Shown here piece by piece: positions 38,001 through 58,139 of a stretch of 64,000 nt of DNA. Both the position numbers and the translations under genes were made by a program. The stretch is from Prorocentrum cordatum. Lineage: Eukaryota. Each line of letters starts with the position of its first letter. The first letter of the stretch is position 1. The notes beneath the pieces are model-generated. The model was not told the origin of the DNA, did no database searches, and worked only from the letters and a program-made list of their open reading frames with translations. The stretch covers positions 1 to 64,000 of the forward strand of contig CAUYUJ010000062.1 of assembly GCA_963575745.1 (NCBI GenBank), given 5' to 3'.

Positions 38001-41000
38001 CATATTGGATCACCCTGAAGAACAAGACCACGCGCGAAACGAAACAACGCACAGAGAATGGACGTCCGAGCGACGGCAAGAGGTGAGGCCAAGGCGAGAC
38101 GGGGAGAGAGCGGCGGCTCGCGCAGACACGGACACACAGGTCAGGTCAGGTCAAGCCGTAGGTTGGGGCAGCCCATGGGCACGTGCACGGGGCATGAGCC
38201 GGGACCCCGTCTTTGACGGCGTCCGCCCTGCAAGCTGCGGAACGAGGCTGTGGATGCGCATGCATAATTCTGCTGTGCTTCAAAGGAGGGAGAAGGACGC
38301 ACGGGGGGAAGGAGGGGACACGGACACGCAGAGCGACTCCAGGTCTCCGACGGCGCACTGCCGCTCCTGACCAGGCTGCCCCGCTTCGGCGTGCTGTCCA
38401 GCAGCTGCGCCTCGCCCGGGGCGCTCCCGGGGGTGCAGGGCATCGTCCCGAGCGGCAGCGGGAGGCCCGAGCCACGTGGCCCGAGGGCCAGAGATCCGGC
38501 GGCTCCTGCTCCTCCTCCTCCTCCTCCTCCCTCCTCCCTCCTCCTGCTCCTCCTCCTCCTCCCTCCTCCTCCTGCTCCTCCTCCTCCTCCTCCCTCCTCC
38601 TCCTCCTCCTCCTCCTCCTCCTCTCCTCCTCCTCCTCCTCCTCCTCCCTCCTCCTCCTCCTCCTCCTCCCTCCTCCCTCCTCCCTCCTCCCTCCTCCTCC
38701 TCCTCCTCCCTCCTCCTCCTCCTCCTCCTCCTCCTCCTCCTCCTCCTCCTCCTCCTCCTCCTCCTCCTCCTCCTCCTCCTCCTCCTCCTCCTCCTCCTCC
38801 TCCTCCTCCTCCTCCTCCTCCTCCTCCTCCTCCTCCTCCCTGCGCTTCTCGTCTCGGTTCGCGGGCTCGCGGGGGCCCGCTGCAGGGCCCCGGGAGGCGA
38901 TCGAGAGCGGGCTCGGGGCAAGAGGTTGCCCCCGGGGGAGCCGTCGGGGCCTCCTGGGGCCGCGCGCTGGACAGATCTCTTCGTCGGAGGTTTGCCTTTC
39001 GGTCGGGCGTGTCCCTCCACAGGAGGAGTGTTCAAGGATAGTCAACAAAAATAGGCTGGGCACGCTTTTTGGACGACTCTTGGCTATTTTCGAGCCTTGT
39101 TCGACTATCTGTTATTCGTCGTCCCATATCCGCCCGTAGGAGGACATGCCCGACCGAAGTTTACCTTGCCCTCGTCTTCGCCTGCTGGGGCCTCCTAGCA
39201 GGCCCTCGTCGCCAGGCAGACCCGCCGCGGAGCCCTGGTCAGGGCGCGATGCCCGATGTCCTTCCCCTCGTCTTCGCTCTCTGGGGTTTTCCGGGAGGCT
39301 CTCGACACCAACGACCTCGTCTGTTGCGGAGCTCTTGTCGGAGTCAGAAGCGGCATATCGGCGTCTGTGTCTCTCTCTCTCTCTCTCTCTATCCCTCTCT
39401 CTCTCTCTCTCTCTCTGTGTTGGCATCGCTCGGGCGTGTGCATGTCTCTCGGCCAGGTCAGTACCATAAGATCTGGACCACCTTTCGAGCATGTTGGACC
39501 ATCTCGTAAAGCAAATCAAGCACACAGCATTCGAGCAAAACAACCAACCACCCACCCCTACCCCCCACCCCCCACCCCCCACCCCCCACCCCCAAAAAAA
39601 ACTACAGCAACAAGAACAAAAGCACGAAACCAAACAATGCACAAGGAATGGACGGACAATCCGCTGGCATGCGCGTCTACCTTGGCTTGGAGAGCCAATT
39701 CGACCTGCTTCTAGAAGATCGAGGCCTGGGGCTGGGGCCAAATACTGCTCTCACGTTCTATAGACACTTTGGATGCCGTGACGCCTATAGGCGCATTCGG
39801 GGTGGATTCGTCTACGGATGGCGCGGCCGTTGCGTTCGGCGCAGTACGGGGTCGGAGAAAGGGCAGATCCGTCCACGGCACGGTCCACCTCTAGGAGCAG
39901 GTCCCGCGCGGCATTCCAAGAGTCGGCTCTCCTCGCTCGCTTCCCCACCGACTGGCGCCACGGCGCTGCAGTGCACGCCGCTGCCGAGACGAGCCCCTGC
40001 TCGGCAGTGCATCGCCGATGGATTCAAAGTCAAGTCGGGCATGTCCCTCTACGGGAGGAATATCCAAGAGCAGTCAAGAAAGAGCATGGGGAGGATTCTT
40101 CGACTAGGTTTGCCTGGTCTGGGGCATGTGCTGGAGGACGTGCCCGACCTGAGACCAGCCCCTGCTCGGCAACGCATCGCCGATGGCGTGAAAGCGCAGG
40201 CCCTGCTCGGCGATGCGCATCGCTCCCCCCGGAGGTGCAGCCGCCCGCCTTCTGGCAGGCCCTGCTGCCGCGCGAGGACCTCCGCAACACGGTCTCCAGG
40301 GAGCACTTCGAGCTGGCGCCCCAGGGCGGGGAGCTGCGCCTGACCAACAGGAGTCAGGGGCAGCGACGGGGGGCAACGACGGGGGGGGGGATGGGCCCAG
40401 GTCAGAGGAGAGAAAGATACCCATGCCGCTACCCTGCGCCCGTTTTCCCCTTTGGGGGGGCCTCCCGGGAGGCCCTCGTCGCCACCGCCAGGTTCGCCTC
40501 ATGCCGCCGCCCTGCGCCTTGGTCAGAACGCACCCCGGGAGCCGGGGAGTAGCGGTATCGGTAGTTGTTGACCCCCATTGGCCCATTGATCGCCGATGGG
40601 GGCCCGATAGCCCCAGCCTGCCCAGGAGCGTGCGGACTTGCGATCGGGGGCTTATCGCCGATCTGCCAGGGCAGGGCAGGACAGGGCCGGTTTCGATCCC
40701 TCCGATTCGGTTCGGTTCGGTTCGATGTCGATAGTTTCCGATGCCGATTCGATTCGATTTCGGAGTTTCAGATCTGGATTCCGATGTCTCAATGGAGGCC
40801 TACTAGTCTGCCGATTTCGGCCGATTGAACTTCTCCCGACTCGGCTGCCAGGGGTGATGATTAGGGGGGTGGATCTCATGGCAGGGCGGGGGCCATGGTA
40901 TCTCCCCAGATTTCATGGCGCCTTTTCTTATTTCAATGCGTCCCCGCCCCCCCCCCCCCCCGGGCCGCGCACATGCCGCCGGCCATGATTTGCGCCCCCT

Positions 41001-43450: not shown

Positions 43451-44610
43451 GGGAGGGAGCGAGCGGGGGAGGCGGGGGCAGGGGGGAGGAGGCAGGGCGG
43501 GGAGCAAGGGGAGGGGAGGGAGGGGAGGATGAGGGAGAAGGTAAGAGAGGGGAGGAGGGAATTATGGAGGGAGGAGGGGAGGGAGGGAGGAGATAAGGAA
43601 GGGGAGGGGGGAAACGCGAGGAAAAGGAGGAGGGAGAGAGGGAGGTTTGTCCACCGCCTCATGCGGGGTCGGTCTCGACCGGCCCTCTCCTCCGACCCGT
43701 CGGCGTGCGGGCCACGCACTTCCGCGACAGCATCCCCACCGTGCTCTTCCGGTTCCCGTGGGCGGGAGACGTGGGTGCGAATCCGTATCGTTTCACCGAT
43801 CCCTGTCCCCTGACCCTATCCACATCTCGAGCCCCACCGTCTCACCACCTCAGTTGGGGATACGCCCCGCGAGGCCCGAAGAGAGCAGCCTGCATCCCCA
43901 TCCAGGGGGGGTAAGTCGGCCAGTGGGGCACAGCCCACGCAGGTGGGCATGGGGGTCGGTTAAACGATGCTCAGGGGCAGTAGATGGGAGGGGGAGAAGG
44001 GTGCCCTTTTCGGACCTTCAAAGCCCCCTTTCTGCAGCCCTCGCTGCCCTTTTTTCCATGTTTGGCGCCCCCATTACGCGGCCTCCAAGACATACCCGTA
44101 CACGCTGATCGTTGAAAGTATGTATTTCTGGTATGCCAGATCTCAATCTACGTCAAGCGCCTTCCTGTTTCAAGAGTCGATGTGCCTTTGAGGTGTTGTG
44201 TTATGCTCTGGGGGGGGTGCTTGGAGCCAATGTGCTCTATCCGTTTCCTGGTTCATGTGTTTACCTACAGTGCCGTTTTAAACACATGCTCCGCGTGCGG
44301 ATCATGTATTAAAAAATACAGGGATTTAGTAGTAAAAACAACGATGATATGATGCATAAACTTACTCGTAAATTAAGCATGTATTAAAAATCCCATGTAA
44401 TTAAGAATCCCATTATTAAAAATTGCCCTGTACTTCCAACCGACGGGTACCTCCACGACCACCCTTCGGGACTGTTGGGGGGACGGAGCCAGCGTCTCCA
44501 TTGATCTCACCATCGATCTCGTTCTCGAGCGCACGACCGCTCTCACGCGATCGATCTCCCTCGATCGGTCTCACTCGATCGCTCGCACTCGATCGAGCTC
44601 ACTCTTGCGA

Positions 44611-44690
<80 letters not shown>

Positions 44691-44956
44691 TCCCTATCGA
44701 GCTCACTCCTCGGCGATCTCGCCCGATCGAAAACACGATCGATCTCACAACGGTGGGAGCCCGGCGGAGGGAGAGCGCTGACGGAGGGGCGCGCGCCGCC
44801 CGCGGACACGGGGAGGTGCGGGGTCGCAAGAGGTGCCTGCTCGAGCCAGACAGCCGCGGGGACGGTGGTGGCCTCGGTCGCAGCCCGAAAACTGGCGTCT
44901 TCGGGTCCCCCTCCTCCTCCTCCTCCTCCTCCTCCTCCTCCTCCTCCTCCTCCTCC

Positions 44957-44978
44957 TCCGTAGCCATTTTGGCTCAAG
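44957..44978 (+). other. Dinoflagellate spliced-leader (DinoSL) sequence, retro-copied
   Basis: TCCGTAGCCATTTTGGCTCAAG is an exact match to the DinoSL consensus DCCGTAGCCATTTTGGCTCAAG. It is followed by ATG, not the GT donor expected in an SL RNA gene. Confidence 0.97.
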
Positions 44979-45127
44979 ATGCTTTGTTCCACAGGGGAAC
45001 ACGTGGATACCGCTAGTCCGCGGCCAGTGCTAGGGCGTTTCTGCCCGACGTTTCTCATTCAACCTGTGAGCTCCTGGTGGAGCGTATCGACCCACTCCCA
45101 GACGGCAGCAGGCACCACGTGTGTGCG

Positions 45128-46135
45128 ATGGCGCCGCTGTCCAAGAAATGGGTTTGGTCTACCTGCAAGAGCTGCAACAATTGGGCGTACGACTGGAAGA
45201 TCAAGCGCAATGGGGGCTGCTGCGCCAAGTGCGACTCGTTCGCCACTCTCTGGGCGGACACTCCCTCGGCGTCGCGCAAGCCACCATGGGGAGACCAACC
45301 TACAAAGGGCACCTACGCGGAAGTGGTGTGCAGGCAGCTGGTCCACGCCGTCTCCAAGCTGGGGCCCGACCAGAGCATGCAGGAGCAGCTGGAGCACCTG
45401 CAGACCACCACCTCCCAGAAGTGCGCCCCGCCCAAGAAGGAGTTACCCAAGTCTGCGGCTCTCAAGCAGGCAATCGGCAAGGTCAATTCCGCCAAGGCTA
45501 AGCTCGACGGAGTCACCAAGCGACACATGGACGCTGAGAAGGCGCTCGCCAAGCTCGCTGAGCAGGTGGCGCAGGCAGCGGAGGAGGTCTACGAGGCACA
45601 GCTGGAGCACTCGAAGGCCCTGGAAGAATACAACATGCACTCAGTGGCGGAGGGCACGGCGGCTAAGCCCGAGCAGACGGGCTTCCAGGTGGACGAGAGC
45701 CTCTTCGCCGACGAGGAGGATTTGGAACAGACTCAGAAGGACCAGCTTGCAAAGTTCAGGGGGGACGCGAAGTCCTTGCAGGAGCTGCTCGAGCGCGCCA
45801 AGACGCAGCAGGAGGCTCTGCTCACCATGGTCGAGAGCGCGAAGAAGATCAAGGCGGATCATGCGGCAAAGAAGCGCAGGATCAACGAAGGAGGGCAAGC
45901 ACACGCACATGTTCCACCACCTGCTCAAGACGCCAAGCCTGAGGCACCACCACAGCAACAAGCCAGCGATCCAGACGCAGAAAAGCGCAAGGCAGAGGCG
46001 ATCGCCAAGCTCATCGAGGAGAACAGGGAGCGTACCAGGGCGGCATCTCAGAGGGCGACCAACTCTTCACCTACGGCTGGCACGGCTGCTGCGGGCGGCG
46101 CTACGGGCTTTTCTCCTGGTCGGGCTGGTATTTAG
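45128..46135 (+). CDS. Element A ORF1: N-terminal Cys4 zinc ribbon plus coiled-coil (putative nucleic-acid chaperone)
   Basis: MAPLSKKWVWSTCKSCNNWAYDWKIKRNGGCCAKCDS (CxxC...CxxC), then an A/E/K/Q-rich helical region. Intact to TAG, in the typical LINE ORF1 position. Confidence 0.85.
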   Translation: MAPLSKKWVWSTCKSCNNWAYDWKIKRNGGCCAKCDSFATLWADTPSASRKPPWGDQPTKGTYAEVVCRQLVHAVSKLGPDQSMQEQLEHLQTTTSQKCAPPKKELPKSAALKQAIGKVNSAKAKLDGVTKRHMDAEKALAKLAEQVAQAAEEVYEAQLEHSKALEEYNMHSVAEGTAAKPEQTGFQVDESLFADEEDLEQTQKDQLAKFRGDAKSLQELLERAKTQQEALLTMVESAKKIKADHAAKKRRINEGGQAHAHVPPPAQDAKPEAPPQQQASDPDAEKRKAEAIAKLIEENRERTRAASQRATNSSPTAGTAAAGGATGFSPGRAGI

Positions 46136-46352
46136 CCCGCCATGGCAGCCGCCTGCAGCGCTGGACAGGCCTCCAGCACCGCCGCCCCCCGAGAGGTCTG
46201 CCTTCCCTGGTCCCCCTGGGCCGTCGCCCCCGTGTCTCGGGGATCGCACCTCCTCGTCCGCGCCAGATGTGGACGCAGCTTGTCAAGACTGGCGGCGCAG
46301 CCAGAGTGAGAGAGCTCGCAATCAGACATGTGAGACAGCCAAGCCAGCGAAG

Positions 46353-49300
46353 GTCACCAGTATTTTCTTCAGCAACATCACACAATGGGGCGAGAAGCCT
46401 CAGAAGTTCCTCAACGAGAGCCAGGAACTGGCTCAGATATGTGCCTTCACGGAGTCCCATGTGCCGCAGTCAGGCATCGCGAAGCTGAAGAAAGACCTGA
46501 GCAAAGACGGATGGAAAGCAGCAGTCACGGCAGCAACACCGACGCGACGCTCGAAGGAAGGCAACAGCGGAGGCGAGCTGCTCATCGCCAAGGCGCACTT
46601 GGCGACCACAACGTTCGACGCGATGAGGGAGACCATCAAGGCCCGAGGAGGACAGGACCCATTCAGAGGGTTCACGGCCATGACTACCCACCTCAGCGGA
46701 GGAAATGTGGTTCTCTTCTCCCTCTACCTGCTTCCCAAGGAGGGCATGCAGGGCAGCAACTTCGAAAGGATCAAGGCGCTCTCGACGGTCATAGGGAGCA
46801 GCACAGATCCTTGGATTATCATGGCAGAAAGGCATATGCCCCCCGACCCTGGTCGAGAAGTCAGGCCCCACCACGCGCCTGGGAGGCAAGGTGATCGTTC
46901 CGAAGGTTCAGGTCACATGCGACAAGGGCGAGGGCAGTCTCATAGATTTCGCCATGGCACGAGAAGACATGGCAGAAGGCATCACCATCGACGGACATGC
47001 GAGAGTACCTTGGAGGACACATACGGGGCTCTTGCTCAAGTTACCAGGGCGTTCGGAGGCTTGGTGGCACAGGCATTTGGATCTCCCCAAGCCGTTGCCG
47101 CTGGTGCTCCCACCGAAGAAGGCCCCCGACCCAGAGAGCAAGCGCAGCAAGACGAAGCAGGCAGCACATCAGAAAAAGACTGGCAGAACTCCCCGAGGAC
47201 TTGCGCGAGGAGTTCAATTGTATCGAGCCCCCACAGACCAACATGGTGCAGCAGACGGTGCAGTACGCGATAGACGAGGGCCAGTGGGAGCAGGCCAGTC
47301 GCACCGCCATCGGGCCAGCGTTGACCAAGCAAATGCACGAGTTGGAGGCCAACCTTCTCATTCGCAGTGAGCATCAGAGGCTGATGGAGCAGGCGATCAC
47401 AGGCGAGTACGCGGTCTGGGTCACCACCCTGGAGGAGGCGATCATCGGAGTAGACATGATGGACGCCGAGCAGGCTGATGCACACCGAGGTAGAGGGGGT
47501 GGGTTTGCAATCAGATGGCAAAGATCGAAAGCCACACCAGGCCGTACGCATATGAAGTATCAAGCAGCTGAGTTGCGGTCGATAATGGGAGTCTTGATTA
47601 CCAGATATGAGTCATTAAGGTCCAACGGCACGGACAACAAGCAACAGAGGCAGTGCGAGAAGGAGTTGTCCACGACCTACCAGCAGCTCAGAAGGATGGG
47701 ATTGGATCAGATCTTTGGTCGAAATTTTGATCATGACGAAGCCGATGAGCGCATGTTACGGGTGCAGGAGGTCAAGTCACACACGCTGGAGGAGCTTGAG
47801 AGGTTGAAGGACGAGATTGAAAACCACCTGGCAATTGCGGTCTCCAGAGGCATCTCCACACAGCGGCAGCAGTTCACTAAGTGGGCAAAGAAGATGTGGT
47901 CGGAGAAGCCAGGGATCCTTCACAAGCACGTCAAAGATCCAGTGCAGCCAACATACGAGCAGTACCACCAGAACGCAAGCTCGGCGGACCCAGAGATTCT
48001 CATGCACACGAAGAGGCTGAAATGGCTAAAGATCTGGACGGATGCAGTGGACACCAGAGAGGACATCGCGTCGGAGCTGCAGGCCATGCACAGACAGGCC
48101 AGAGACGAAGACTTGGAACCGATCACGATTGAGGAGTTCGACTCGGCAATGCAGGCCACGAACCCCAATAAAGCAGGCGGTGTGGACGGTCTCAAGTTGC
48201 ACGACATCAAAAGGGCCCCGCAGAGCGCACGCCAGAAGCTGGTCGACCTCATCAACATGCGCGAGCGGACGGGCACTTGGCCGAGGCAGTGGACGGCTAC
48301 ACTCGGGGCTGTGGTCCCTAAACCAGCAGGTGGTGAGAGAGTGCTGGGGATGCTACCCCTACCAGTCAAACTTTGGAGCAGGGCGAGGGCGTCACCTTGC
48401 AGCGAATGGAGCGAGGCGCTGAGCGCGCACTGGGACACGGCCCTCAAAGGCAGCTCGGCGTTGCGAGCGGGGCTGCTCCGTGCCTGCCTGGACGAGGCGG
48501 GATACGAGCTGGGCATCTCCAGCCTCACCCTGCTGGAGGACATCGAGAGGTTCTACGACAGCGTCAGCCTGGTGCTGCTGATGCGCATCGCTAGGGGCAT
48601 CGGCTATCCAGCAGTGGTAGTGGAAATGGAAGTACTCATCTTCGCGGCGGCTCGCTTTCTCAAAGACAAGTCGTCGCTGAGTGAGGCAATATGGGTATCC
48701 AGATCGATAGTTGCGGGGTCACCCAGAGGCGTCAGCCTCGCGAAGGTTTTCCTCCACCCAATCCTACAGCGAGCGCATATCATATCACCGACGGCTGGAC
48801 TCTGGACATTCGTCGATGACACTGTGGCTCGAGAGGAGGGCACGGCACTGGGGACCCCAGACAAGATGGTCAGAGTGGCTTGCGAGCTCGCCCAAGGACT
48901 TCGTCAACAGAGGCTCAAGATCTCGGACAAGACAGTCGTCATCGGCTCGAGCAGAGACATGGTCAAGAGCGCGGCGAAGAGGTTGCAGCAGAACGGCACC
49001 CCCGCCAAGGCCAAGACATACACGAAGGACCTAGGCCTCGACGCTTCTGCTGGGCGTAAACGAGTTGTTCGCACACTCAAGAGACGAATACTGGCAGCTA
49101 AGAGACGGCTCGCCAAGATCAAGAGGCTGAGGAAAAGCACGACCTTGGCAAAAGAAGCGAAAGGACTCTGGTCTACGGGCGCCCTGCCCCAGGCCACACA
49201 CGGATATCAAGCGTTCGGCCTTTCCATGACGGAGCTGACGAAGCTAAGAAGACAGGCGGGCCAGATCGCAGCAGGCTCTCAAGGAGGCAAATGTCTGACG

Positions 49301-51433
49301 ACAACACTTGCAATTGAGATGTGGGACAAGGAGCCAGGCTTGGAATTGCGCAAACGAGTTGTTCACGAGTGGCTGGCGATGTGGCAGATGAATCCTCAGA
49401 TCAACGCGAGAGTCAAGTTAGCCTGGACCAAGATCAGACAGCGATTGATCACGGCTGGACGGAGGAGGTGGGCCTATGTCAGAGGCCCGATCGCCACGCT
49501 GCAGGCCACGCTGATGGACATAGGCTGGAACCCCATCAAGGCGACAGAGTGGGACAGACCACTACCAGATGGACAGTTACAGGCTTGGCTTATCCCCAGC
49601 GGCACTGACACGGAGTACACGAACGATTGGGAGAGACTAGCCATCTTGGCAGACGTGGTCAGCGACATGCGCAATTTGTATTGGCAGCAGGCGTCGAAGC
49701 ACGAGGATGGAGCTGACCTGCTCCCAGGTGCGGATGTATGGGGAATCAGGGCAGAGCAGCGCAAGTTCCACAATGAAGGAGCTTCAGATTTGGCGGCACT
49801 CAACCTGATAGTCACCACAGGTGGGCAATGGACCCGAGTGAGGCGCGCCAGACAAGGATACCTCATTGATTCCAAGCTTTGCCCGCGCTGCCAGCTCAAA
49901 GAAGAGAGTTTGTATCACCGCATTTGGGAATGTGAGCAGAACAAGGGGCACGAGGATTTCGTGAAGTCGGAGGCGCTTGTGGTACAGGCGGCGGCGCAGC
50001 ACGAGGCGTCGCCTGCTCTTTGGCCTCGGGGAGTACCAGCCGTTGGGCTCACCACTCCTGAGTTCGATGAAGCGCTCCTCGGCCAGCTGCAGTTGGATTT
50101 TAAGTCACACGGCTTCGCCGAATGCACGGAGTCAGGCAGAGTTCACGTTTTCGGTGACGGCTCGGGGGGCAAATATTCTGACGACCCCAGACGGAGACGC
50201 TGCGGAGCAGCGATCGTGGGGCTCGCGTTTGATTCGGGAGGCGGGTGGACCTTGGGGGAGGCTCTCGGGGTTCCTCTGCTCGGAGAAAAGCAAACGGCCC
50301 CCCGAGCCGAAGTTTTAGCATTCTGCCTGGCGTTAGAGCAAGTAGATTCAGAGCTGGGTTTCACATTTGTGACAGATCACAAGACGATCTCCAGGACCTG
50401 GAGGGCCCGCTTTCGAAGGCCCAACCCTGTGGGTGCCAACGAAGACCTCTGGACCAGGGCCCACATTGCTTTCCAGGCCAGGAGGAATCTTGATGTGGAA
50501 GTTGCCTGGTCCCCCTCCCACCAAGAGGAGGCCCCAGAGAAGTTAGACACGCTCGAGAAACTCTTTTATGCCTCTGGCAACGCCTGCGCTGATTCGCGGG
50601 CGGGGGAGGCGGCGGAGTAGGCGTGGAGGGGGCTGGTGGGGCGGGAGCCTGAGACGGACAAAATTGATGCCACAGCTTCGTTGATTCGTCGAAGGGCCAG
50701 ACGTGCCCTGGCGCGCGCAGCGGAGGCCGAGGAAAACACTCGGGCGGAGAGACCCCCTTTGAAGAAGGAGTCGAGACCGTCCAAGTTGGTGGCTGCGGCA
50801 CACGCCTCGGACCACATCCTCGAGCCATGTGGTCGCAGCATGAAATACTGGTGGTGCACGGTATGTGAGAGAGTTGTCCCCCGCTACCAAACGCGGGTCT
50901 TTGCGGCCACGACATGTTCAGGGCCTCCTGCCGAAGTCAGGAGAGGCCCCCAGGCCGCTGTTGGAGAGAGGGTCGCCCCCTCAGCCCGAGGGGGCGGCTT
51001 CCTAGAAAAGGTTCACCCCTCTCACAGGCTCCAGTATGTGGAGAAATGGTTCATTCACATTTGTTCGGAGTGCGGTTCTTATTGCACCGTGGACCCCAGG
51101 AATTTAGTGGGCAGATGTGATGGACGGACCAAGACAGGTTCGGAGAACCTAGCGAGGATAAGCAAAGGTTTGTTCCCGCGTCGCGAAGGCCCCCCGAGGG
51201 CAATTTTAGAGGCCATTAGGGCTCGTGAAGAAGCCGCCTGCGCGGACGTGGCGGCCATGCTCAGGAGTCCGCAATCGGAAAACCCAGGACCCGACCTGGC
51301 TGGCCAGGCGGCTGGGCCTTCGGGGGCTCAGACGGGAGCGGGGTTATTGGACCGCGCGGCCCCCTCCAGGCCTGGCCAGGCCCAGGAACCCCAGCCCGTG
51401 CGGGCTGGGGATGGAAGCGATTCCAGTGATTAA
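46353..51433 (+). pseudogene. Element A ORF2: APE endonuclease - RT - Cys motif - RNase H - C-terminal Cys/His domain (2 frameshifts, 1 in-frame stop)
   Basis: APE: IFFSNITQW, CAFTESH, NSGG, FSLYL, PWIIMA, SLIDF, PWRTH. RT: KAGGVDG, PKPAGGERVLG, EDIERFYDSV, WTFVDD, KDLG. Cys motif: CPRC..EESLYHRIWEC. RNase H: FGDGSGG, QTAPRAEVLA, FVTDH, DLW, WSPSH, GNACAD. Frameshifts near 46840 and 47175. A TAG at 50618-50620 is followed by the same frame to TAA at 51433 (WWCTVC, HPSH, CSECGSYC). The frame is also open upstream to the ATG at 44979. Confidence 0.92.
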
Positions 51434-51704
51434 ATCGCCCCCCAGGGCAGCGTCCGCTATCAAAGAGTCAAAGAGTCCTCCTCCTCCTCCTCCTCCTCCT
51501 GCCCCTCCTCCTGGACACCGCCCTCTGCATTACCCCCTCCACCTCCTCCTCCGTCCTCCGTCCTCCTCCTCCTCCTCCTCCTCCTCCTCATCCTCCTCCG
51601 TCCTCCTCCTCCGTCTTCCTCCTCCTCCTCCTCCTCCCCCTCCTCCTCCTCCTCAGCTTTCACTCAGGCCGAGGGGCCTAATCCCCTCCATCGCTCGGCC
51701 GCGG

Positions 51705-53036
51705 ATGAGCCCAGGGCCCGCGGGAGATGCTTTCGCAGACTCTCCTTGGCGCCAAGGCCCACCGTTCCAGCGAAGCAATACATGGAAGTGCAGCTCTTGC
51801 GGCTGCGCAAAGAACAAGATGGCGAGCCACGTCTGCAAGCACTGCGGCTCGGCTTGGAACGCCCCGAAGGTTGTTGAGCCCTCTCCTCCTGCTGGGGTTT
51901 GGGCTCAGAACACTGCTGCTGGTGGCCTGCTACCCGCTCTCTCGCCTGGGCTGCAGTATCAAGGCTTCCAGGGCGGTGGCAACGGCAAGGGCGCACACAA
52001 GGGCGGAGGCAAGCCTTCCAAGGGCAAGGGCAAGGGGCACGGAGGCGCTGCGTGGACTCCACCTGGCTACTTCTACTCCCCCGCCCTGGTGCCAGGTCCT
52101 CAAGGAGGAGTGGTTCGGCCTGGCCCTCTTCCCAACGTCACCCAGCTTTCGGTTCAAGAGTTGGAGACCTTTGTCGAGCTGTTCCGTAAGGTTGGCAACA
52201 CGACGGAGGCCAACCGCTACCAAGTTCAGCTGGTTGCGCTCAAGAAACCTCACAAGGCTGAGGAGTTATGCGAAGAACAGCTCGCCCGATGCCAACGCGA
52301 GCGGCCTAAACTGGGGAAGAAGTTGTCTTGGGAGTTCGGCAATCTCGAGGAGCTTCGCCTCAAGGTCGCCGCTCAGGAGTCCCTTATCGTTCAGATCAAC
52401 AAGGAGATGGACGGCTTGGACACCAAGCACGACGAGCTCACTGAAAAGGTACACTCGCTGCGCAAGCAGCACCCCGACGCCAGCAAACCAGTCGTGTCGC
52501 TCTCCGAGCTCTTGGCAGGGAAGATCGACGCTTTCGAGCTGGACGTCGGTGACTTGCTGGACATCGACCCCGAGGTCGGCGCGCTCGAGGAGTCGGACAT
52601 CGCGGAGGTCAACAGGCGTAAGGAGCAGCTGGTCAGCGGCTTCAACACCATGGCCAAGGACCTGTTCGCCAAGGCTATGGAGTCCGCGCAGGCTGCTAAG
52701 GCGGCGCATGTGGAGCAGACCCAGCGCCTCAAGGCCAAACGTCGCCGTGGCGATGATGGAGCTCAGGCTGCTGAAGCTGATGGGCAATGGCAACCTGCTG
52801 ACGGCGCTCCTGCTCCTGGACAGACGGCCCAGGCTGAACCAGCAGCCCAGCCAGCTCCGACGTCGGCTCCATCGACTCCAACTACGGGATCTTCTGCAGG
52901 CACAGGTCAGGCTGCCAGTGGATCCTCGGCTGTACCTCCACCGCCTGACCTGGCCAAGATGCGCGAGGCTGCGCGCGCTCTGGCAGCCAACAAGGCGCCT
53001 GGCAAAGGCGGCCCCCCGCTTGACGTCTCGATGTGA
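51705..53036 (+). CDS. Element B ORF1: RanBP2-like zinc finger, GK-rich segment, coiled-coil
   Basis: WKCSSCGCAKNKMASHVCKHCG resembles the RanBP2-type W-x-C-x2-C...N...C-x2-C pattern. Also GKGAHKGGGKPSKGKGKG and a long helical region. Intact to TGA. Confidence 0.85.
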   Translation: MSPGPAGDAFADSPWRQGPPFQRSNTWKCSSCGCAKNKMASHVCKHCGSAWNAPKVVEPSPPAGVWAQNTAAGGLLPALSPGLQYQGFQGGGNGKGAHKGGGKPSKGKGKGHGGAAWTPPGYFYSPALVPGPQGGVVRPGPLPNVTQLSVQELETFVELFRKVGNTTEANRYQVQLVALKKPHKAEELCEEQLARCQRERPKLGKKLSWEFGNLEELRLKVAAQESLIVQINKEMDGLDTKHDELTEKVHSLRKQHPDASKPVVSLSELLAGKIDAFELDVGDLLDIDPEVGALEESDIAEVNRRKEQLVSGFNTMAKDLFAKAMESAQAAKAAHVEQTQRLKAKRRRGDDGAQAAEADGQWQPADGAPAPGQTAQAEPAAQPAPTSAPSTPTTGSSAGTGQAASGSSAVPPPPDLAKMREAARALAANKAPGKGGPPLDVSM

Positions 53037-53364
53037 AGCGGGGGGCATCGAATCGGAGATTTTTTTCGGCCATGAGAGGGTCAAGCTTTGCTGCACGCCT
53101 GGCTCCCCTCTCTTTGGCCCCAGCTCACGTAATCCTCGGTGTGGCACGGCGCCGTCGGTCTCGGCGGCCCCGCAGCACGGTTGCTCCAATCCGTCCGTGA
53201 AGAATCTTGCTCGTGTATGTTTGCCAGTTCATGCGAGCGGTGACACGATGTTAATTCAGGGGACGCATCGTACTCCCCTGGCTGCACGGCGAGATGCTTG
53301 GAATCTTGGAGCTGACGCTCGTGGCTGCCCTACCGCCCCCGATGCCCCCCCCCCCCCCCCCCTC

Positions 53365-56300
53365 GGAAGAATTGCCCCTGGCCGTGGAAACTGTTAACGG
53401 CAACGCTTGGTCGTCGGTGAGAGACTGGCCCCCCCAGGTGTTCAGCCCATGTTCTCCTTGTCCAGGAGCACAAGCTCCAGGCTGGGGATGCTATTGAAGT
53501 GGCGTCTGCCTTTTGTTTCAGGCACGGCTGGAAATCCCCGTGGGTCCCAGGGACCCTTGGAGAGGGGGGAGGCCCCTCCTATGGCGTCGCCATCCTGGCC
53601 CGTAGCTGGCTAGGCTTGCACAGCTTGGGCTCTGCTGAGCTCTGGCCCCACAGGGCCGTGGTTGGAGTTGTCCACCCCCCAGAGGGCCAGGCCATCCTCC
53701 TCTCCTCTCTTTACCTTCGGGACTCGGAAGGGCTCAGCGAAGCGAACCTCGACATCCTGGGGGCCCTTGGTGCCCATTTTTCGACTTCTGGGATGCCCTT
53801 CTTGATGGGCGGCGACTTCAATCTCGAGCCGACCACGCTCCACGAGAGCGAGTTCGTTCACAATCTTAAGGGCCAGCTGGCGGCTGCGGACGGGCCCACG
53901 CGTTACGGCACTGGCGTTCCCAAGTGCTACGACTTCTTCGTTCTGTCGGGCGGCCTTGCGAAGGCCGCCAGCTCAGTTTCCAAGAATTTTGATGGGGGCA
54001 CTTTCCACCCCCACTTGCCCGTTCGGATCCAATTCCATGTCGGAACTGCCAATCTTCACGTCCTCTCGTTCCGCAAGCCCCCCCCCCCGATCGCTGTGGA
54101 CGCCCCGATCGGTCCGTCGCCCGAGCCCCCGCGTTACGGCAAATGCTCGGCCCTGTTGGACAAGGCCCTGGTTAGGGCCCAGAGGGGGGATGTTGACGTG
54201 CTGGACTCCCCTCTCGCTTCTGCCTATAAGCAATGGGCCAACACGGCCGAGCCAGAACTGTGCAATGTGATGGGCACGTCCATCCCTTACTTTGGGGCAC
54301 GTGGCAAAGGAGTCGAGATGTGGTGGAGGCCCGTCCTGGGTCGCGACCACGGCTCGGTCCGTTACCCTGTGCTCCACAGCATGAGATGGTTTTGTCCAAC
54401 GTCTTAAAAGTTTATCGGTTGGTGCTGTTGGGCCCCGACAAGCATCCCTCGGATTTCGCTAAGGTGCAGGCTGCCCTGGCGTCGCCCCCTGCTTTCGTGG
54501 CGGGTCACCAAGGTAGCTACGCTGCTGCGTTCTCTGCTGCATCCTCTGTGGCCTGCCTGTGGGGCGTGGAACCCGACGAGTGCAAGGCCTGCCTGGACTC
54601 GGTTCATTCTCAGCTTCAAGAGGCCAACAAGCTTTGTTCCGAGGAATTTTCCAAAATCGCCAGGTCTGATTGGGCTTCGTGGCTCCTGGACGGGGTCAAC
54701 CAGGGAGCCCGTCGGGCCCACCAGGTTTCCAAGAACCCCGCGGCCTGGAGGCCCACCTCCACATTGAGTCGGTTTGGAGCTCTGGTTAGTGACCCTCAGG
54801 CCCTCTTGAAGCAAGAGAGTGACAGATTTGGTAAGCTGTGGCGGGCTGTAGAAGCCCCCCCTCGGCTTCGGTGCTGCAAGCTCGTGCCTCTGCCGCAGAT
54901 CACAGTGGACGAGTTTCGCATTGCCTCGCGGTCTTACTCGAGGCGCTCTGCTGTCGGCTTGGACGGCTTTCACCTTCGGCACTATCAGTTTCTCTCCGAC
55001 GAGTCCCTGGAGTGCCTAGGGAAGCTGTTCGTGGTCGTCGAGTCGGCTGGTATGCTTCCCAGACAACTGCGGGCCCTGATCATGACCATGATCCCGAAGT
55101 CGGTCCCTGGGTTCCGCCCCATTGGGGTTTTTTCGAGCCCCTTTTCGCATCTGGGGCCGCATTCGGAGGCCCTATGCCGTGGCCTGGGAGGAAGCCAATG
55201 ACAGGCCCTACTGGGCTGCTGGAAAGCATAGGTCGGCTTCGGACGTGGTGTGGCGCCAGTCGGTCTCGGCTGAACGCAGCACGTCTTCAGGCCAGCATGC
55301 TGGAGCTATTTTTACGATATGCTGAAATACTACGAGCAGATTCCACTGGCCTTGCTGGAGTCGCGCGGCCAGAGGCTTAATTTTCCTCCTGTCCTGATGG
55401 CGGTCTGTCTGGCTGGATACCGATCGGCTCGTTTCATGGTTTTGCGTGGGGTCGTGGCCCCCCCTGCGTATGGAGATCACGGTGTGACAGCGGGCTGCTC
55501 GATCGCTACGACTATGATCAGGGTGTTTGGGCTTGATTCTTTCGACTCTGTGGTCCTGGGTCCGAACACTACCCTGGACGTCTACATCGACGATTCTGGG
55601 CTCAACGCTGTTGGCACGGCCGAACAGATTGTCACCAGCCTGCAGGACGGGGCCCCCACCCTTCAGCACGCCATCACGGTTATGATGCGTGCCCAGATTT
55701 CTTTGGACAAGACTGCCATGGTCTCGTCTTCTAAGTTCGTTTCGCATAGGCTCTCCCAAGTATTTGGAGATCTCGTTGGGCCCCACAGGGAAACCACGGT
55801 TAACCTCGGCATCGATTTCACTCCAGGGACTTCCAGGAGGGTTAGGGGGCGAATTGCTGAGGCGAAGACCAGGATGAATGCTGCGCTGCGTAGGACTCGC
55901 CGCTTAGTCCGCCAGCGTGGAACGCTGGGCTCTCGCGCTACCAAGGTGTTTGTCTCAGGGCCGCTGGCAGGCGCTCAGTACGGCGCTGAGGTCCACGGCA
56001 TGTCCGAAGGAGAAGTGCTCAAGATCCGTAAATTGGCTGCTTCCACCATGAAGCCGAACTGTGGGGGTCGCTCGCTCACGATCCTTACCCGCCTCGAGAA
56101 AGACCCAGCCTGGTACGGATCTGTAGCACCTATCATTCGGTATTGCAAGGAGTTGTGGTTGCTGCAGACGAGGGCTCCCTGGTCGCTCAGTTGGCACGAA
56201 ATTCGCGAAGCCTGGTCCGCTGTCTGGGCCCGACCCCCGCGTACCTGGAGATCCTGCAAGGGCCCTGTCGGGGCCATGTACCTCTCCCTGAAAAGGCTCG

Positions 56301-57887
56301 GCTGGGACATGACGGACCCTTTCACGATGACGGACGACAGAGGGGTGCAGATTCCCCTCCTGCTTACCTCCCCTGCCCTCTTGAAGAGATGTTTAAAGAG
56401 CGCGGTTTTACGGGATTTAGAAATCGAGGCTGGAAACAGGTACCTTGGTGGGACCCGCCTCTGTTTTGATTTGGCCGACGCGGCCCTGGCGCCATCCAAG
56501 TTTTCCCGCAAAGAAAAAGGCGCCATCAAAGCCCTCGTTTGTCAGGCTGTGTAGCCGCTTAGCCGTGCAGCCGCCCTCGGCTACTGCGTAGATGACGAGT
56601 GCTTTCTGCGTGGCCAGGTCGGAGACACTATCTTGCACAGGCTTTGGTTTTGCCCTGAATGCGAGGAAGATCGAGTGGAGATCGTTGGTGAGCGTCTCCT
56701 CGCCAAGATCCGTGCGGAGCTCGCGGCTGATCCCAGTCTGAGCTTTAAGTTGGCCTGCGAGACGGGCCTTTTTCCCGCACCCGTCCTTGTGGGCCCCTGG
56801 TCCCCTGTCACAGGAACAAGCCCTGGACAGCGTCGTTTTCCAGGTCTTCCCCGAAGCGCACCTGGCCGAGGGGTCACCAGTTCCTTCCGAGGGGGAGAGG
56901 GCTCTTGGAGGGGACATTTACACGGACGGCTCTTGTTTGCGGTCATCGATCAAGGATCTTTCCCGCTCGGGGTGGGGAGTTGTGAGTCTTGGTCCTTCGG
57001 GTAAGATCCTTGCTCAGATGCACGGTGCGCTGGGCAGCTTCTTTCCCCAGACGTCTGTCGCTGCGGAGTTTGCGGCGCCAACGAGTGCCGCCAGTCTCCT
57101 TTCCAGTGCCTCGGACATTTTCAGCGACTGTGCCGCTGTCGTGGGAGAATACAGTAAGTCTTTTGTCAATTGCCTTTCAGCCAATCGGCCCTACAGTGGG
57201 TTGGTTATGCAGAGCTATGCGCACGCCAATAGCATGCTGCGCTCGGTCCAGAAGGTCAAGGCCCACAGGGCGGATGACCCTGATCTTTCGGACCTGGAGC
57301 GTCGGCACATTGTTGGGAATAACGCGGCCGACATGGCGGCTAAAGCAGGTGCGCGGTTGCATGTAGATTTGAATTCTGACGATCGCGAGAATCTCGATCA
57401 CGCGATCCGCACGGCTAAGGCCGTCTTCAAATTAGCTGCCAAATTGCTCGAGCGCTGGCTTAAGACCAACCTCGAAGGTGTGCCTCGTGCGGAAGCTCCG
57501 CCGAGAATACCCAACCCCGCCAGCCCTCCACATGTGTGGGCCTGGGTAGGTCGATTTTGGTCATGTCCGAACTGCTTGCGCTGTTCGCGCAAGCAGGTGA
57601 AGCCCGCCCCTGGAGTGTGCACACGCCAGCTCCGAATCGACCCTGTCGAATTGCGTGCTCTCGGACACAGCTGCATAGTGATTGACTTTGATGACCACAG
57701 TTTTGCCTGTGTGTGTCGCGCCTGTCACGCTTTCAGCACGGGAGGGCAGCTGCGACGCTTGTCTAAGACATGCGTCGGCCACCCTCCTGACCGCAGCGAG
57801 GTCTTTTCGCGGCTCAGCAAGGGGCTCCATCCTGACCACAAGAGGAAAGGGGCCAGAGCTGACTGCGAAACTATTTGCCCCATTTAG
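53365..57887 (+). pseudogene. Element B ORF2: APE - RT - Cys motif - RNase H - C-terminal Cys domain (several frameshifts, one stop)
   Basis: APE: VETVNGNAW, YGVAILAR, SSLYL, MGGDFN, CYDFF, HPHLPV. RT: AVGLDG, PKSVPGFRPIG, KYYEQI, GVTAGCS, YIDD, NLG. Cys motif: LHRLWFCPEC. RNase H: YTDGSC, QTSVAAEF, FSDC, KVKAH, GNNAAD. C-terminal CPNC..C and CVCRACH. Breaks near 53350, 53450-53500, 54395, 55140, 55315 and 56815, plus TAG at 56552. Confidence 0.9.
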
Positions 57888-58139
57888 TTGGGGTCTGAGG
57901 CAGTGGATGTCAAAATCCTCCTCCTCCTCCTCCTCCTCCTCCTCCTCCTCCTCCTCCTCCTCCTCCTCCTCCTCCTCCTCCTCCTCCTCCTCTTGGGGCG
58001 GTCTGGTGAGGCAGGCCGGTCCGCGCGGAGCTCCGTGGGGCGAGACGCCGATGTGCAGGGGCCGCGCTGGGCTCGGGAGGGGTGCTCCGGTCCTCGGGCC
58101 GAGGCTCGCCGTGGCCAGGGGTCAGGGAGGAAAAAAACA

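What the first reader, a model, noticed from the sequence alone, without database searches (positions are those of the whole stretch)
44979..47273. Element A: ORF2 frame opens at an ATG immediately after the SL and overlaps all of ORF1 in the +1 frame
Seen: ...GGCTCAAG|ATG at 44979 starts a stop-free frame that runs across the whole 1-kb ORF1 and directly into the APE motifs. The only other in-frame route to the endonuclease would be a frameshift or a non-AUG start. The equivalent +1 frame under ORF2 is broken by many stops, which serves as an internal control. Inference: ORF2 is made either from the cap-proximal AUG, with leaky scanning giving ORF1 from 45128, or by +1 frameshifting, for example at ATT-TAG 46130-46135. 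Either would be unusual for LINEs, whose two ORFs are normally tandem or only briefly overlapping.
Basis: partly seen in the sequence, partly recalled or inferred. Interest (0 to 1): 0.8.

Follow-up and report, generated by a model that had tools for sequence, protein, structure and literature searches.

The report
Retrotransposon ORF2 frame open across ORF1
A dinoflagellate LINE-like retrotransposon copy carries its enzyme gene in a reading frame that stays open back through the whole first gene to a start codon right after the spliced leader, which may be an unusual way to make two proteins from one RNA but is not yet proven.

Summary
An exact 22-nt dinoflagellate spliced leader (44957-44978) abuts ATG 44979. 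That frame is stop-free to 47270, covers all of ORF1 (45128-46135, +1 relative to it) and encodes the N-terminal half of the endonuclease.

Corrections:
- This copy is damaged. Contigs of other copies lack one base at 46839 and one at 47175, so the family's ORF2 is one frame and 47273 is not its natural end.
- An in-frame TAG sits at 50618.
- Three more frame-0 ATGs lie inside ORF1.

Chance: naive shuffles give P about 0.001-0.009 but are miscalibrated, because control frames are depleted too and there is a general NNC|A codon-boundary bias. A context-aware model gives P = 0.011-0.068. Long overlapping open frames are common in this 62% GC window.

The neighbouring, unrelated LINE (Element B) shows the same pattern: a +1 ATG 22 nt after its ORF1 ATG, open to the endonuclease start (P = 0.0009-0.009). 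There the frame is off by one base at a C18 run.

The overlap peptide has no homologues and no amino-acid constraint. No RNA, ribosome or protein data were available.

Odds: 5'-proximal AUG with leaky scanning 0.4; reinitiation, non-AUG or internal start 0.3; +1 frameshift 0.2.

The parts
44906..44959 (+). (TCC)18 microsatellite directly upstream of the element. The same repeat follows Element A and Element B.
   Evidence: Tandem Repeats Finder
44957..44978 (+). Complete 22-nt dinoflagellate spliced-leader relic. It marks the 5' end of a retrocopy of a trans-spliced RNA and holds the last frame-0 stop (TAG 44961).
   Evidence: consensus quoted in PMC6616646
44979..44981 (+). First ATG of the element, in frame 0, with A at -3 and C at +4.
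44979..45127 (+). Leader / 5' UTR of ORF1. It holds no other ATG. Its first 46-71 nt are shared by contigs that then run on unlike.
   Evidence: table 7
45128..46135 (+). ORF1 (335 aa, frame 2): a zinc-finger-like CxxC pair, a coiled-coil-like middle and a basic patch. ATG with G at -3 and G at +4; stop TAG followed by C.
   Evidence: 11 of 16 listed variant sites are synonymous in this frame
44979..46319 (+). Frame-0 stretch upstream of the endonuclease (447 codons, Arg/Ser/Pro-rich). It overlaps all of ORF1 in the +1 frame.
   Evidence: no homologues
46136..46319 (+). Junction between the ORF1 stop and the endonuclease. 72% GC, Pro-rich in frame 0, no frame-0 ATG. ATG 46142 (frame 2) opens only 55 codons.
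46320..46838 (+). Endonuclease, N-terminal half, frame 0.
   Evidence: tblastn to Element B endonuclease E = 4.6e-4
46839..46844 (+). C6 run with one base more than the one other copy seen. It shifts the endonuclease to frame 1.
   Evidence: table 4 (X2, 1 contig, depth 5.1 of 5.1); other copies read ...IIMADWNMPPTLVEKS
46845..47172 (+). Endonuclease C-terminal half and linker, frame 1.
47173..47177 (+). A5 run with one base more than other copies. It shifts ORF2 to frame 2.
   Evidence: table 4 (47175 left out 1 in X1, X2 and X4, one contig each, all of the depth there)
47178..50617 (+). RT-like region and RNase H, frame 2.
50618..50620 (+). In-frame TAG that cuts ORF2 off from its C-terminal domain in this copy.
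   Evidence: domain homology
50621..51433 (+). C-terminal Cys-rich domain of ORF2, same frame. It is homologous to the C-terminus of Element B's ORF2.
   Evidence: E = 0.004, 189 aligned
51476..51654 (+). (TCC)n tract, likely the 3' tail of Element A.
51705..53036 (+). Element B ORF1 (frame 0). ATG in a weak context (C at -3, A at +4).
51727..53397 (+). Element B +1 ORF (556 codons). It covers all of ORF1_B and the 358-nt spacer and ends at TAA 53395, just after the endonuclease begins in another frame.
53345..53362 (+). C18 run in Element B between the +1 ORF and the endonuclease N-terminal motif (frame 2, 53375-53431). A C7 run at 53429-53435 precedes the shift to frame 0.

Best explanation
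What it is. Element A (44957 to about 51654) is a full-length retrocopy of a trans-spliced RNA of a dinoflagellate non-LTR (LINE-like) retrotransposon. Its layout is ORF1, then one long ORF2 (endonuclease, RT-like region, RNase H, Cys-rich tail), then a (TCC)n tail.

Family arrangement. ORF2 lies in the +1 frame of ORF1. It has no ATG of its own after ORF1. Its frame stays open back to the first AUG of the RNA, which abuts the spliced leader.

Proposed mechanism. Ribosomes that start at this 5'-proximal AUG read through the ORF1 region in the +1 frame, making an Arg/Ser/Pro-rich, unconstrained N-terminal extension, and run straight into the endonuclease and RT. Ribosomes that pass this AUG start at the strong-context ORF1 AUG 149 nt downstream. 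One RNA would then give both proteins by leaky scanning over a complete ORF1/ORF2 overlap.

Shown: the anatomy, the family-level frame relation, and a modest excess of openness that recurs in the neighbouring LINE.

Inferred: that the AUG is used, that it is leaky, and that the long product is the working ORF2 protein.

This particular copy is damaged (two 1-nt insertions, one in-frame TAG, and an altered ADWN motif) and would not make ORF2 protein itself.
For: Anatomy:
- An exact leader is followed by ATG, and frame 0 is open from 44964 to 47270.
- ATG 44979 and the ORF1 ATG 45128 are the only two ATGs in the first 170 nt.

Family-level frame relation:
- Other copies lack the extra bases at 46839 and 47175.
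- They show no gap across 45911-46398.

Stop depletion in the +1 frame of ORF1:
- Synonymous shuffle: 0 against 3.1, P = 0.008-0.009.
- Codon-order shuffle: 0 against 5.9, P = 0.0006. This null fits five ORF2 pieces (observed/expected 5/5.8, 38/46.6, 4/4.8, 15/14.2, 9/8.7).
- Context-aware model: P = 0.011-0.068.

Replicate in Element B (ORF2 only 23% identical to A):
- Its ORF1 ATG is in a weak context.
- A +1 ATG lies 22 nt later.
- That frame is open for 556 codons, through ORF1_B and the spacer, up to the endonuclease start.
- P = 0.0009-0.009 for the ORF1 part; 0 against 7.6, P = 0.0002; spacer alone P = 0.076.

Forced stops: 1 Met codon followed by an A-starting codon was counted in the two ORF1s (Element B's start ATG, upstream of its +1 ATG), against 4 in the RT part of Element A's ORF2.

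Logic: an upstream AUG opening a frame of about 2,150 codons would starve ORF1 of ribosomes unless it is leaky or useful, yet the family multiplied with it. In run X1, 470 contigs were laid on the element.
Against: - No RNA, ribosome or peptide evidence was obtained.
- The overlap peptide has no homologue in any search.
- The frame-0 peptides of A and B are not alike (E = 0.43).
- 13 of 16 listed variant sites change the frame-0 peptide, and only 3 of 16 are silent in it. There is therefore no amino-acid constraint and no drop in ORF1-synonymous change.
- The shuffle nulls are anticonservative:
  - ORF1's +2 frame is also depleted (5 against 12.2).
  - A control frame shows 7 against 14.2.
  - A general NNC|A bias exists in codons that cannot make stops: 13 of 61 G-ending before A against 63 of 129 elsewhere.
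  - Under the most conservative model Element A alone gives P = 0.068.
- Overlapping open frames are common in this window: 27 stretches of 1 kb or more, and a 2.2-kb one in plain low-complexity DNA.
- In Element B the +1 frame does not join the endonuclease as the sequence stands. ATGs at 53294 and 53342 are in frame with the endonuclease N-terminal motif.
- AUG 44979 has A at -3 and lies 22 nt from the cap. By vertebrate rules (recalled) it should be used well, which would give more ORF2 than ORF1, the opposite of what LINEs need.
- The junction and leader show no frame-0 coding signature in GC by codon phase.
Confidence: 0.4

Rival explanations
1. ORF2 is started independently near the end of ORF1, and the long upstream openness is a by-product of composition. 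Possible forms:
- Termination-reinitiation after the ORF1 stop, at a non-AUG codon in frame 0. For example CTG 46161 or GTG 46266, both with G at -3 and +4.
- Initiation at ATG 45861 or 45909.
- A second, shorter mRNA made by spliced-leader addition at an internal AG. From 45828 onward the first two ATGs are both in frame 0.
For: - Frame 0 has no ATG between 45909 and the endonuclease, while ATGs 45861 and 45909 are the first two after 45827.
[quoted passage not shown] SART1 couples ORF2 to ORF1 at UAAUG. The second ORF is expected to be translated far less than the first (PMC3894237 section 5).
- Dinoflagellates resolve multi-gene transcripts by leader addition (passages of PMC10666404 and PMC11453091).
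- Under the conservative null Element A's openness is not significant (P = 0.068), and the window is full of long open frames.
Against: - It does not explain why Element B's +1 frame is also open over ORF1 and the spacer (P = 0.0009-0.009 and 0.076).
- No leader-like loose end was listed at internal places among the 24 of 113 loose ends shown. All four runs are contigs, apparently of DNA.
- The junction RNA does not fold better than shuffles (z = 0.38).
- The review in PMC3894237 argues that classical reinitiation after a long ORF1 is improbable.
Confidence: 0.3
2. ORF2 is made as an ORF1-ORF2 fusion by +1 ribosomal frameshifting. The shift would occur either at the ORF1 stop (AUU UAG C, reading AUU then AGC) or at low level anywhere along ORF1. 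The second form would also require the whole +1 frame to be open.
For: - ORF2 is exactly +1 relative to ORF1, and frame 0 is open across the stop.
- The ORF1 stop is followed by C. Passages of PMC5009743 state that the base 3' of the stop matters and that C is conserved in one 'shifty stop' case, and that Euplotes shifts +1 at stops.
- A distributed form of shifting would explain the stop depletion in both ORF1s.
Against: - A and B share no shift motif at their ORF1 ends: GGT ATT TAG CCC against TCG ATG TGA AGC.
- No stimulatory structure was detected (z = 0.38).
- A site-specific shift does not need the upstream openness or the ATG.
- In both elements an ATG sits within 5-6 codons of where the open frame begins, which frameshifting does not predict.
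- No case in nuclear genes of dinoflagellates turned up in the passages of the one frameshifting review read (PMC5009743). No search was aimed at this question.
Confidence: 0.2
3. The arrangement is an accident of this lineage. The ancestral family would have a single ORF, or an ORF2 ATG such as 46142 (frame 2, GCC ATG G context, 6 nt after the ORF1 stop). A frameshift shared by the copies seen here would hide it.
For: - ATG 46142 lies in a near-optimal context right after the ORF1 stop.
- This copy carries homopolymer indels elsewhere.
Against: - Contigs 4-5% different from the window cover 45911-46398 with 0 gaps (records 9, 17, 26).
- Gene models of other copies use the same frame-0 stretch upstream of the endonuclease.
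- The frame from 46142 closes after 55 codons.
Confidence: 0.07

Closest known systems
Two-ORF APE-type non-LTR retrotransposons (human L1, silkworm SART1, Drosophila TART)
   Same: - ORF1 (nucleic-acid-binding type) comes before a long ORF2 with endonuclease and RT.
- How ORF2 starts is unconventional and often AUG-independent.
- TART has ORF2 in the +1 frame of gag.
(Passages of PMC5009743; PMC3894237 section 5.)
   Different: In those elements the two ORFs are tandem, separated by a spacer, or overlap by a few bases. Here the ORF2 frame is open over the entire ORF1 and begins at the first AUG of the RNA. ORF2 here also carries an RNase H and a Cys-rich tail, and the RT is too divergent for Pfam.
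Overlapping genes expressed by leaky scanning in RNA viruses
   Same: Two AUGs in different frames lie close to the 5' end of one RNA, and the second frame overlaps the first. Leaky scanning is listed among viral strategies in PMC3894237 section 5. Specific viral examples are recalled, not read.
   Different: In the viral cases the overlapping product is usually a short accessory protein with conserved sequence. Here it would be a 447-codon unconstrained leader fused to the polymerase, and in Element A the polymerase AUG comes first.
Programmed +1 frameshifting (yeast Ty1/Ty3, antizyme, Euplotes 'shifty stops')
   Same: The downstream enzyme ORF is in the +1 frame of a gag-like ORF. The stop codon has a 3' C (passages of PMC5009743).
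   Different: No conserved shift site is shared by Elements A and B and no stimulator was detected. Frameshifting does not need an upstream ATG or an open frame over all of ORF1.
Dinoflagellate retrogenes with DinoSL relics
   Same: A complete 22-nt leader is encoded in DNA at the 5' end, the hallmark of a reverse-transcribed trans-spliced RNA (abstracts of PMC6050394 and PMC12014239 in the listing; passages of PMC6616646).
   Different: Here the retrocopied RNA is that of the retrotransposon itself. The passages read on dinoflagellate retroposition do not describe the structure of the LINEs.
Conserved 5' signature of trypanosomatid LINEs (Pr77 of L1Tc/ingi), recalled and not read here
   Same: A short 5' stretch is shared by otherwise different elements. 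Here the leader plus 46-71 nt is shared by 12 contigs in X1 and 13 in X2-X4 that then diverge (table 7).
   Different: No ribozyme or other Rfam family was found in 44600-45400. Function and distribution of the shared stretch are unknown.

Membership tests
APE-type non-LTR (LINE) retrotransposon | Apurinic/apyrimidinic-type endonuclease domain at the N-terminus of ORF2 | tested here: inconclusive
   Pfam Exo_endo_phos:
- Element A pieces and P0001-P0003: no hit.
- Element B: E = 1.8e-8, above the cut-off.

Link from A to B:
- tblastn E = 4.6e-4.
- hhalign E = 0.016, collinear.

UniRef names P0002 an endonuclease/exonuclease/phosphatase domain protein.
APE-type non-LTR (LINE) retrotransposon | Reverse transcriptase domain | tested here: inconclusive
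   - Pfam RVT_1: no hit for A at E up to 1; Element B E = 0.11, below the cut-off.
- No solved-structure relative by sequence or by a 3-sequence profile.
- AlphaFold model too poor to search (pLDDT 38.6).
- FVDD (A) and YIDD (B) motifs were seen by eye. Their meaning is recalled.
- A and B align over 760 residues, E = 1.5e-32.
APE-type non-LTR (LINE) retrotransposon | Many dispersed copies, 5' truncation, simple-repeat 3' tail | tested here: met
   - 470, 73, 27 and 81 contigs at 85% likeness or more were laid in four runs.
- Element C (about 30000-33500) starts within the endonuclease, after a (TCC)n tract.
- (TCC)n follows A and B.
- Target-site duplications were not determined.
Retrocopy of a trans-spliced dinoflagellate RNA | DNA-encoded 22-nt DinoSL at the 5' end | tested here: met
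   22 of 22 positions fit DCCGUAGCCAUUUUGGCUCAAG (consensus in PMC6616646).
Dual-coding overlap expressed by leaky scanning | Two AUGs in different frames near the 5' end, with no other AUG between them | tested here: met
   A: 44979 (frame 0) and 45128 (frame 2). B: 51705 (frame 0) and 51727 (frame 1).
Dual-coding overlap expressed by leaky scanning | The upstream AUG is in a weaker context than the downstream one | tested here: inconclusive
   - B: met (C at -3 and A at +4, then G at -3).
- A: the upstream AUG has A at -3 and the downstream has G at -3 and G at +4.
- The context rules are vertebrate ones (recalled) and are unknown for dinoflagellates.
Dual-coding overlap expressed by leaky scanning | The overlapping frame is kept open in relatives, beyond chance | tested here: inconclusive
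   - A: P = 0.011-0.068. B: P = 0.0009-0.009.
- 0 of 16 listed variants makes a frame-0 stop, but only about 0.7 would be expected (the expectation is my estimate).
- Full copies could not be fetched.
Dual-coding overlap expressed by leaky scanning | Reduced synonymous change in the overlapped gene, or a conserved overlapping peptide | tested here: not met
   - 11 of 16 listed variant sites are ORF1-synonymous, and 13 of 16 change the frame-0 peptide.
- No homologues.
- The sample is small: 596 further differences were not shown.
Programmed +1 ribosomal frameshift | Conserved shift site and stimulator | tested here: not met
   The ORF1 ends of A and B share no motif. The fold of 46120-46330 gives z = 0.38.

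The most novel reading that the evidence does not exclude
LINE-like retrotransposons of this dinoflagellate encode ORF2 as a frame that overlaps the whole of ORF1. They would express it from a 5'-proximal AUG: in Element A the codon right after the spliced leader, in Element B 22 nt after a weak ORF1 AUG. Leaky scanning, rather than reinitiation or frameshifting, would then set the ORF1:ORF2 ratio. The +1 reading of ORF1 would serve as a sequence-unconstrained, basic N-terminal leader of the polymerase, and selection would act only to keep it free of stops.
Probability: 0.35. Interest if true: 0.75.

Novelty: new variant of a known kind. Interest (0 to 1): 0.55.

Why it matters
How the second ORF of LINEs is translated is a long-standing open question; reviews read here call it unknown or unconventional. 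A family in which the ORF2 frame runs from the first AUG of a trans-spliced RNA across the whole of ORF1 would be a third solution. It would also be a natural case of complete gene overlap in a eukaryotic mobile element.

The idea can be tested directly with data that exist for related material. Proteomes and RNA-seq are described in PMC10666404, which I did not search at peptide level.

It also shows that the retrotransposons behind dinoflagellate retrogenes are themselves trans-spliced and copied with the leader. That fits a life style without an own promoter. This last point is inference.

If the openness is only compositional, the case is a caution. In 60-65% GC genomes with an NNC|A boundary bias, kilobase-long shadow frames over hydrophobic-poor genes arise easily, and simple synonymous shuffles overstate their significance.

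Tried and rejected
- Whole genome: none is held for this window.
- External DNA copies: ORF1 alignment and ORF2 protein against metagenome and viral contigs, and a 22-nt leader pattern against metagenome contigs. All were empty.
- Homologues of the frame-0 peptide: none among proteins of 420-1,337 aa, of 1,338-3,820 aa, or in the 1.84-billion representative library. The first two scored only capped candidate sets.
- RNA evidence: no RNA holder was listed. All four laid runs are contigs, so starts, strands and expression could not be read.
- Rfam on 44600-45400: no match at E up to 1.
- RNA folds of the leader and of the ORF1-ORF2 junction: z = 0.14 and 0.38.
- RT identity by solved structures and by AlphaFold (pLDDT 38.6; no fold search was run on so poor a model).
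- Earlier findings of this scan: nothing.
- The idea that the leader plus 46-71 nt is a spliced-leader RNA gene: rejected. The leader is followed by AT, not the GT/GC donor described in PMC6616646.
- The idea that ATG 46142 is the true ORF2 start hidden by a private indel: not supported (0 gaps over 45911-46398).
- The 2A-like ENPGP at 51279-51293: it does not fit the D(V/I)ExNPGP consensus (recalled) and lies in the ORF2 tail.
- Similarity of the N-termini of the two +1 ORFs (ML-C-S-T against ML-S-Q-T): not supported by BLASTP.
- One literature search failed on a syntax error and was not repeated.

Full report
**1. Setting**

The window is 58-69% GC over most of its length. It holds 69 stop-to-stop frames of 250 codons or more. 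The closest proteins to ORF1 of Element A are four gene models that NCBI names Prorocentrum cordatum, at 92-94% identity for three of them. The published genome of that species is described as 59.7% GC, with coding sequence at 65.9%, assembled from Illumina plus PacBio reads (passages and section 18 of PMC10666404). No whole genome is held for this window.

**2. Checking the observation**

- 44957-44978 is an exact 22-nt dinoflagellate spliced leader (consensus in PMC6616646).
- ATG 44979 follows at once.
- The last frame-0 stop is the TAG inside the leader (44961). The next is at 47271.
- ORF1 runs 45128-46135 in frame 2 and ends ATT TAG.
- Frame 0 at 46320-46829 is 91-93% identical to the endonuclease part of proteins P0001-P0003.
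- The +1 frame under the RT part has 38 stops.

**3.

*This copy is damaged.* In this copy ORF2 is spread over three frames:

| Part of ORF2 | Frame | Coordinates |
|---|---|---|
| Endonuclease, N-terminal half | 0 | to about 46838 |
| Endonuclease, C-terminal half | 1 | 46845-47172 |
| RT-like region and RNase H | 2 | 47178-50617 |

.

Contigs of four public runs laid on the element show one base fewer at two places (table 4):
- At 46839, a C6 run: X2, the only contig covering it.
- At 47175, an A5 run: one contig each in X1, X2 and X4, all of the depth there.

Other copies read IIMADWNMPPTLVEKS where this copy reads IIMAERHMPPDP. The family's ORF2 is therefore one frame, the frame of ATG 44979. 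The ORF end at 47273 is an artefact of a private insertion, or of an assembly error at a homopolymer; I cannot tell which.

An in-frame TAG at 50618 separates the RNase H from a Cys-rich domain (50621-51433, same frame). That domain is homologous to the C-terminus of Element B's ORF2 (E = 0.004).

*The element's limits.* The element most likely ends in the (TCC)n tract at 51476-51654.

*The frame relation is a family feature.* Contigs that differ from the window by 4-5% cover 45911-46398 without gaps (records 9, 17, 26). The +1 relation between ORF1 and the endonuclease is therefore not private to this copy. One further indel row was not shown.

**4. Is the openness more than chance?**

| Test on Element A | Observed vs expected +1 stops | P |
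|---|---|---|
| Synonymous shuffle of ORF1 | 0 vs 3.1 | 0.008-0.009 |
| Whole path, ATG to endonuclease | 0 vs 5.2 | 0.0013 |
| Context-aware model, ORF1 pool | 0 vs 2.4 | 0.068 |
| Context-aware model, ORF1+ORF2 pool | 0 vs 3.9 | 0.011 |
| Codon-order shuffle | 0 vs 5.9 | 0.0006 |

The first two nulls are too generous:
- ORF1's +2 frame is also depleted (5 vs 12.2, P = 0.003).
- The +1 frame of ORF2 is also depleted (38 vs 48.5).
- The control frame of the whole path shows 7 vs 14.2.

One cause is a general codon-boundary bias. In four-fold codons that can never form a +1 stop, G-ending codons are 13 of 61 before an A-starting codon against 63 of 129 elsewhere in the two ORF1s (Fisher p = 0.0003). 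In the ORF2 pieces the figures are 70 of 191 against 197 of 394.

The context-aware model built on the ORF1+ORF2 pool fits five ORF2 pieces: observed/expected 5/6.0, 38/37.0, 4/6.5, 15/17.6, 9/7.8. The codon-order shuffle also fits the same five pieces.

Empirically, the window holds 27 open stretches of 1 kb or more. Of the 26 others, 2 are wholly covered by another open frame on the same strand. A 2.2-kb open frame at 26474-28690 is plainly a nonsense reading of low-complexity DNA and has no Pfam family.

Taken alone, Element A is suggestive, not compelling.

**5. The neighbouring element as a replicate**

Element B (about 51655-57992) is a second LINE-like element.
- Its endonuclease matches Pfam (E = 1.8e-8) and its RNase H scores 26.6 bits.
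- Its ORF2 is only 23% identical to A's.
- Its ORF1 is not detectably similar to A's (E = 0.38).

Its ORF1 ATG (51705) is in a weak context. The next ATG, 22 nt on (51727), is in the +1 frame and opens 556 codons. These cover all of ORF1_B and the 358-nt spacer and end at TAA 53395.

| Test on Element B | Result |
|---|---|
| Context-aware model, ORF1 part | observed 1 (the forced ATGA at the start codon, upstream of the +1 ATG) vs 5.3-7.4 expected; P = 0.0009-0.009 |
| Codon-order shuffle | 0 vs 7.6; P = 0.0002 |
| Spacer alone | P = 0.076, while the other two frames have 4 and 2 stops there |
| ORF1_B +2 frame (control), region 51930-53036 | not depleted, 14 vs 16.4 |

As the sequence stands, this frame does not join the endonuclease.
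- The N-terminal motif (…LAVETVNGNAW…) is in frame 2 at 53375-53431, just after a C18 run (53345-53362).
- The rest is in frame 0 after a C7 run.
- One base fewer in each run would put the whole endonuclease in the frame of ATG 51727.
- Without any change, ATGs 53294 and 53342 (frame 2) are ordinary candidates for the ORF2 start.

Element B therefore cuts both ways. It shows either the same architecture blurred by homopolymer length changes, or that long +1 frames over ORF1 arise without any link to ORF2.

Fisher's method on the most conservative figures (0.068, 0.009, 0.076, and 0.30 for A's leader) gives about 0.004. Element B alone (0.009, 0.076) gives about 0.006. These are my arithmetic.

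**6. Constraint on the overlap peptide**

One search listed 40 of 636 differences, and 16 of those lie in ORF1.
- 11 are synonymous in ORF1's frame.
- 3 are synonymous in frame 0.
- 13 change the frame-0 peptide, several of them radically.
- None makes a frame-0 stop. By my estimate fewer than one such stop would be expected anyway.

ORF1 is thus the frame under amino-acid selection. Frame 0 could at most be under selection to stay open.

The frame-0 peptide has no homologue. The A and B peptides are unlike each other. GC by codon phase shows ORF1's pattern over the overlap and no frame-0 pattern in the leader, the junction or B's spacer.

**7. Mechanism**

Any ribosome that starts at AUG 44979 on an undamaged family member must read into the endonuclease. 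That follows from the sequence. Whether this happens, and whether it is the source of working ORF2 protein, is inference.

Arguments for:
- In both elements the two first AUGs are the ORF1 AUG and a +1 AUG that sits 5-6 codons after the frame opens.
- The family spread with this AUG in place.
- The stop depletion recurs.

Arguments against:
- The order of the AUGs in A would favour ORF2 over ORF1 unless a leader-adjacent AUG is poorly used.
- The overlap shows no sequence constraint.
- B does not join its endonuclease as it stands.

I give this reading 0.4.

Reinitiation, a non-AUG start, the internal ATGs 45861/45909, or a shorter trans-spliced mRNA together get 0.3. Their support:
- AUG-independent ORF2 initiation is the textbook LINE case (passages of PMC5009743).
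- From 45828 on, the first two ATGs are both in frame 0.

A +1 frameshift gets 0.2.
- For: the stop is followed by C.
- Against: A and B share no shift site, and no structure stands out.

A lineage accident gets 0.07.

**8. Known relatives and novelty**

The element works like a two-ORF APE-type LINE. Its membership rests on:
- Element B's Pfam hits;
- the A-B homology;
- many dispersed copies;
- 5' truncation (Element C);
- a simple-repeat tail.

The RT of A itself is not recognised by Pfam, by the solved-structure sequences, or by a usable model.

Searches of the paper library and passages of two dinoflagellate papers turned up no description of LINE structure in dinoflagellates and no LINE with a complete ORF1/ORF2 overlap. 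Subscription journals and repeat databases were not searchable. If real, this is a new variant of a known kind.

**9. Verdict**

The mechanism is open, with the 5'-AUG route a slight favourite. Interest 0.55.

Noticed in passing
window 44906-44959, 51476-51654, 57916-57992, about 29880-30000: (TCC)n tracts sit directly before Element A's leader, after Element A, after Element B, and before the 5'-truncated Element C. Either these LINEs end in a (TCC)n tail, or they insert into (TCC)n microsatellites, or both. A, B and C all lie on the + strand.
   Followed up: partly
window 44957-45049: The leader plus the next 46-71 nt is shared by contigs that then run on into unlike sequence: 12 in X1, 5 in X2, 3 in X3 and 5 in X4, with break points at 45024, 45027/28 and 45049. 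This 5' stretch seems to be attached to several different downstream sequences (other subfamilies, non-autonomous elements or chimeras). No Rfam family matches it.
   Followed up: partly
window 50618-51433: An in-frame TAG splits Element A's ORF2 from a Cys-rich C-terminal domain that Element B has fused to its RNase H. Both the ORF1 stop and this stop are TAG.
   Followed up: partly
window ORF1s 45128-46135 and 51705-53036; ORF2 pieces: There is a strong codon-boundary bias. Before an A-starting codon, four-fold codons end in C far more often than in G (ORF1s 48 C against 13 G; ORF2s 121 C against 70 G). It makes plain synonymous shuffles overstate the rarity of open +1 frames in this genome.
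   Followed up: yes
window 53345-53362 and 53429-53435; 46839-44 and 47173-77: The four frame changes inspected at base level in Elements A and B (two each; B's other frame changes were not located) lie at homopolymer runs (C18, C7, C6, A5) and go the same way (one base too many). They could be real slippage mutations or assembly errors, so the elements may be less damaged than they look.
   Followed up: partly
window 26474-28690: A 739-codon open frame with no Pfam family reads as Gly/Arg/Glu low-complexity nonsense. Several other places have three to five of six frames open for about 0.8 kb (for example 14846-15623 and 38280-39031).
   Followed up: yes
window 51279-51293: ENPGP in the tail of Element A's ORF2 resembles the end of a 2A 'ribosome skipping' motif, but the preceding residues (PQS) do not fit the consensus as I recall it.
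   Followed up: no
window 44534-44692 and 44300-44430: Upstream of the element lie a (TC)41 tract, 14-nt and 28-nt tandem repeats (TCTCACTCGATCGA), and a short AT-rich block with 17-nt repeats. This is unlike the GC-rich surroundings.
   Followed up: no
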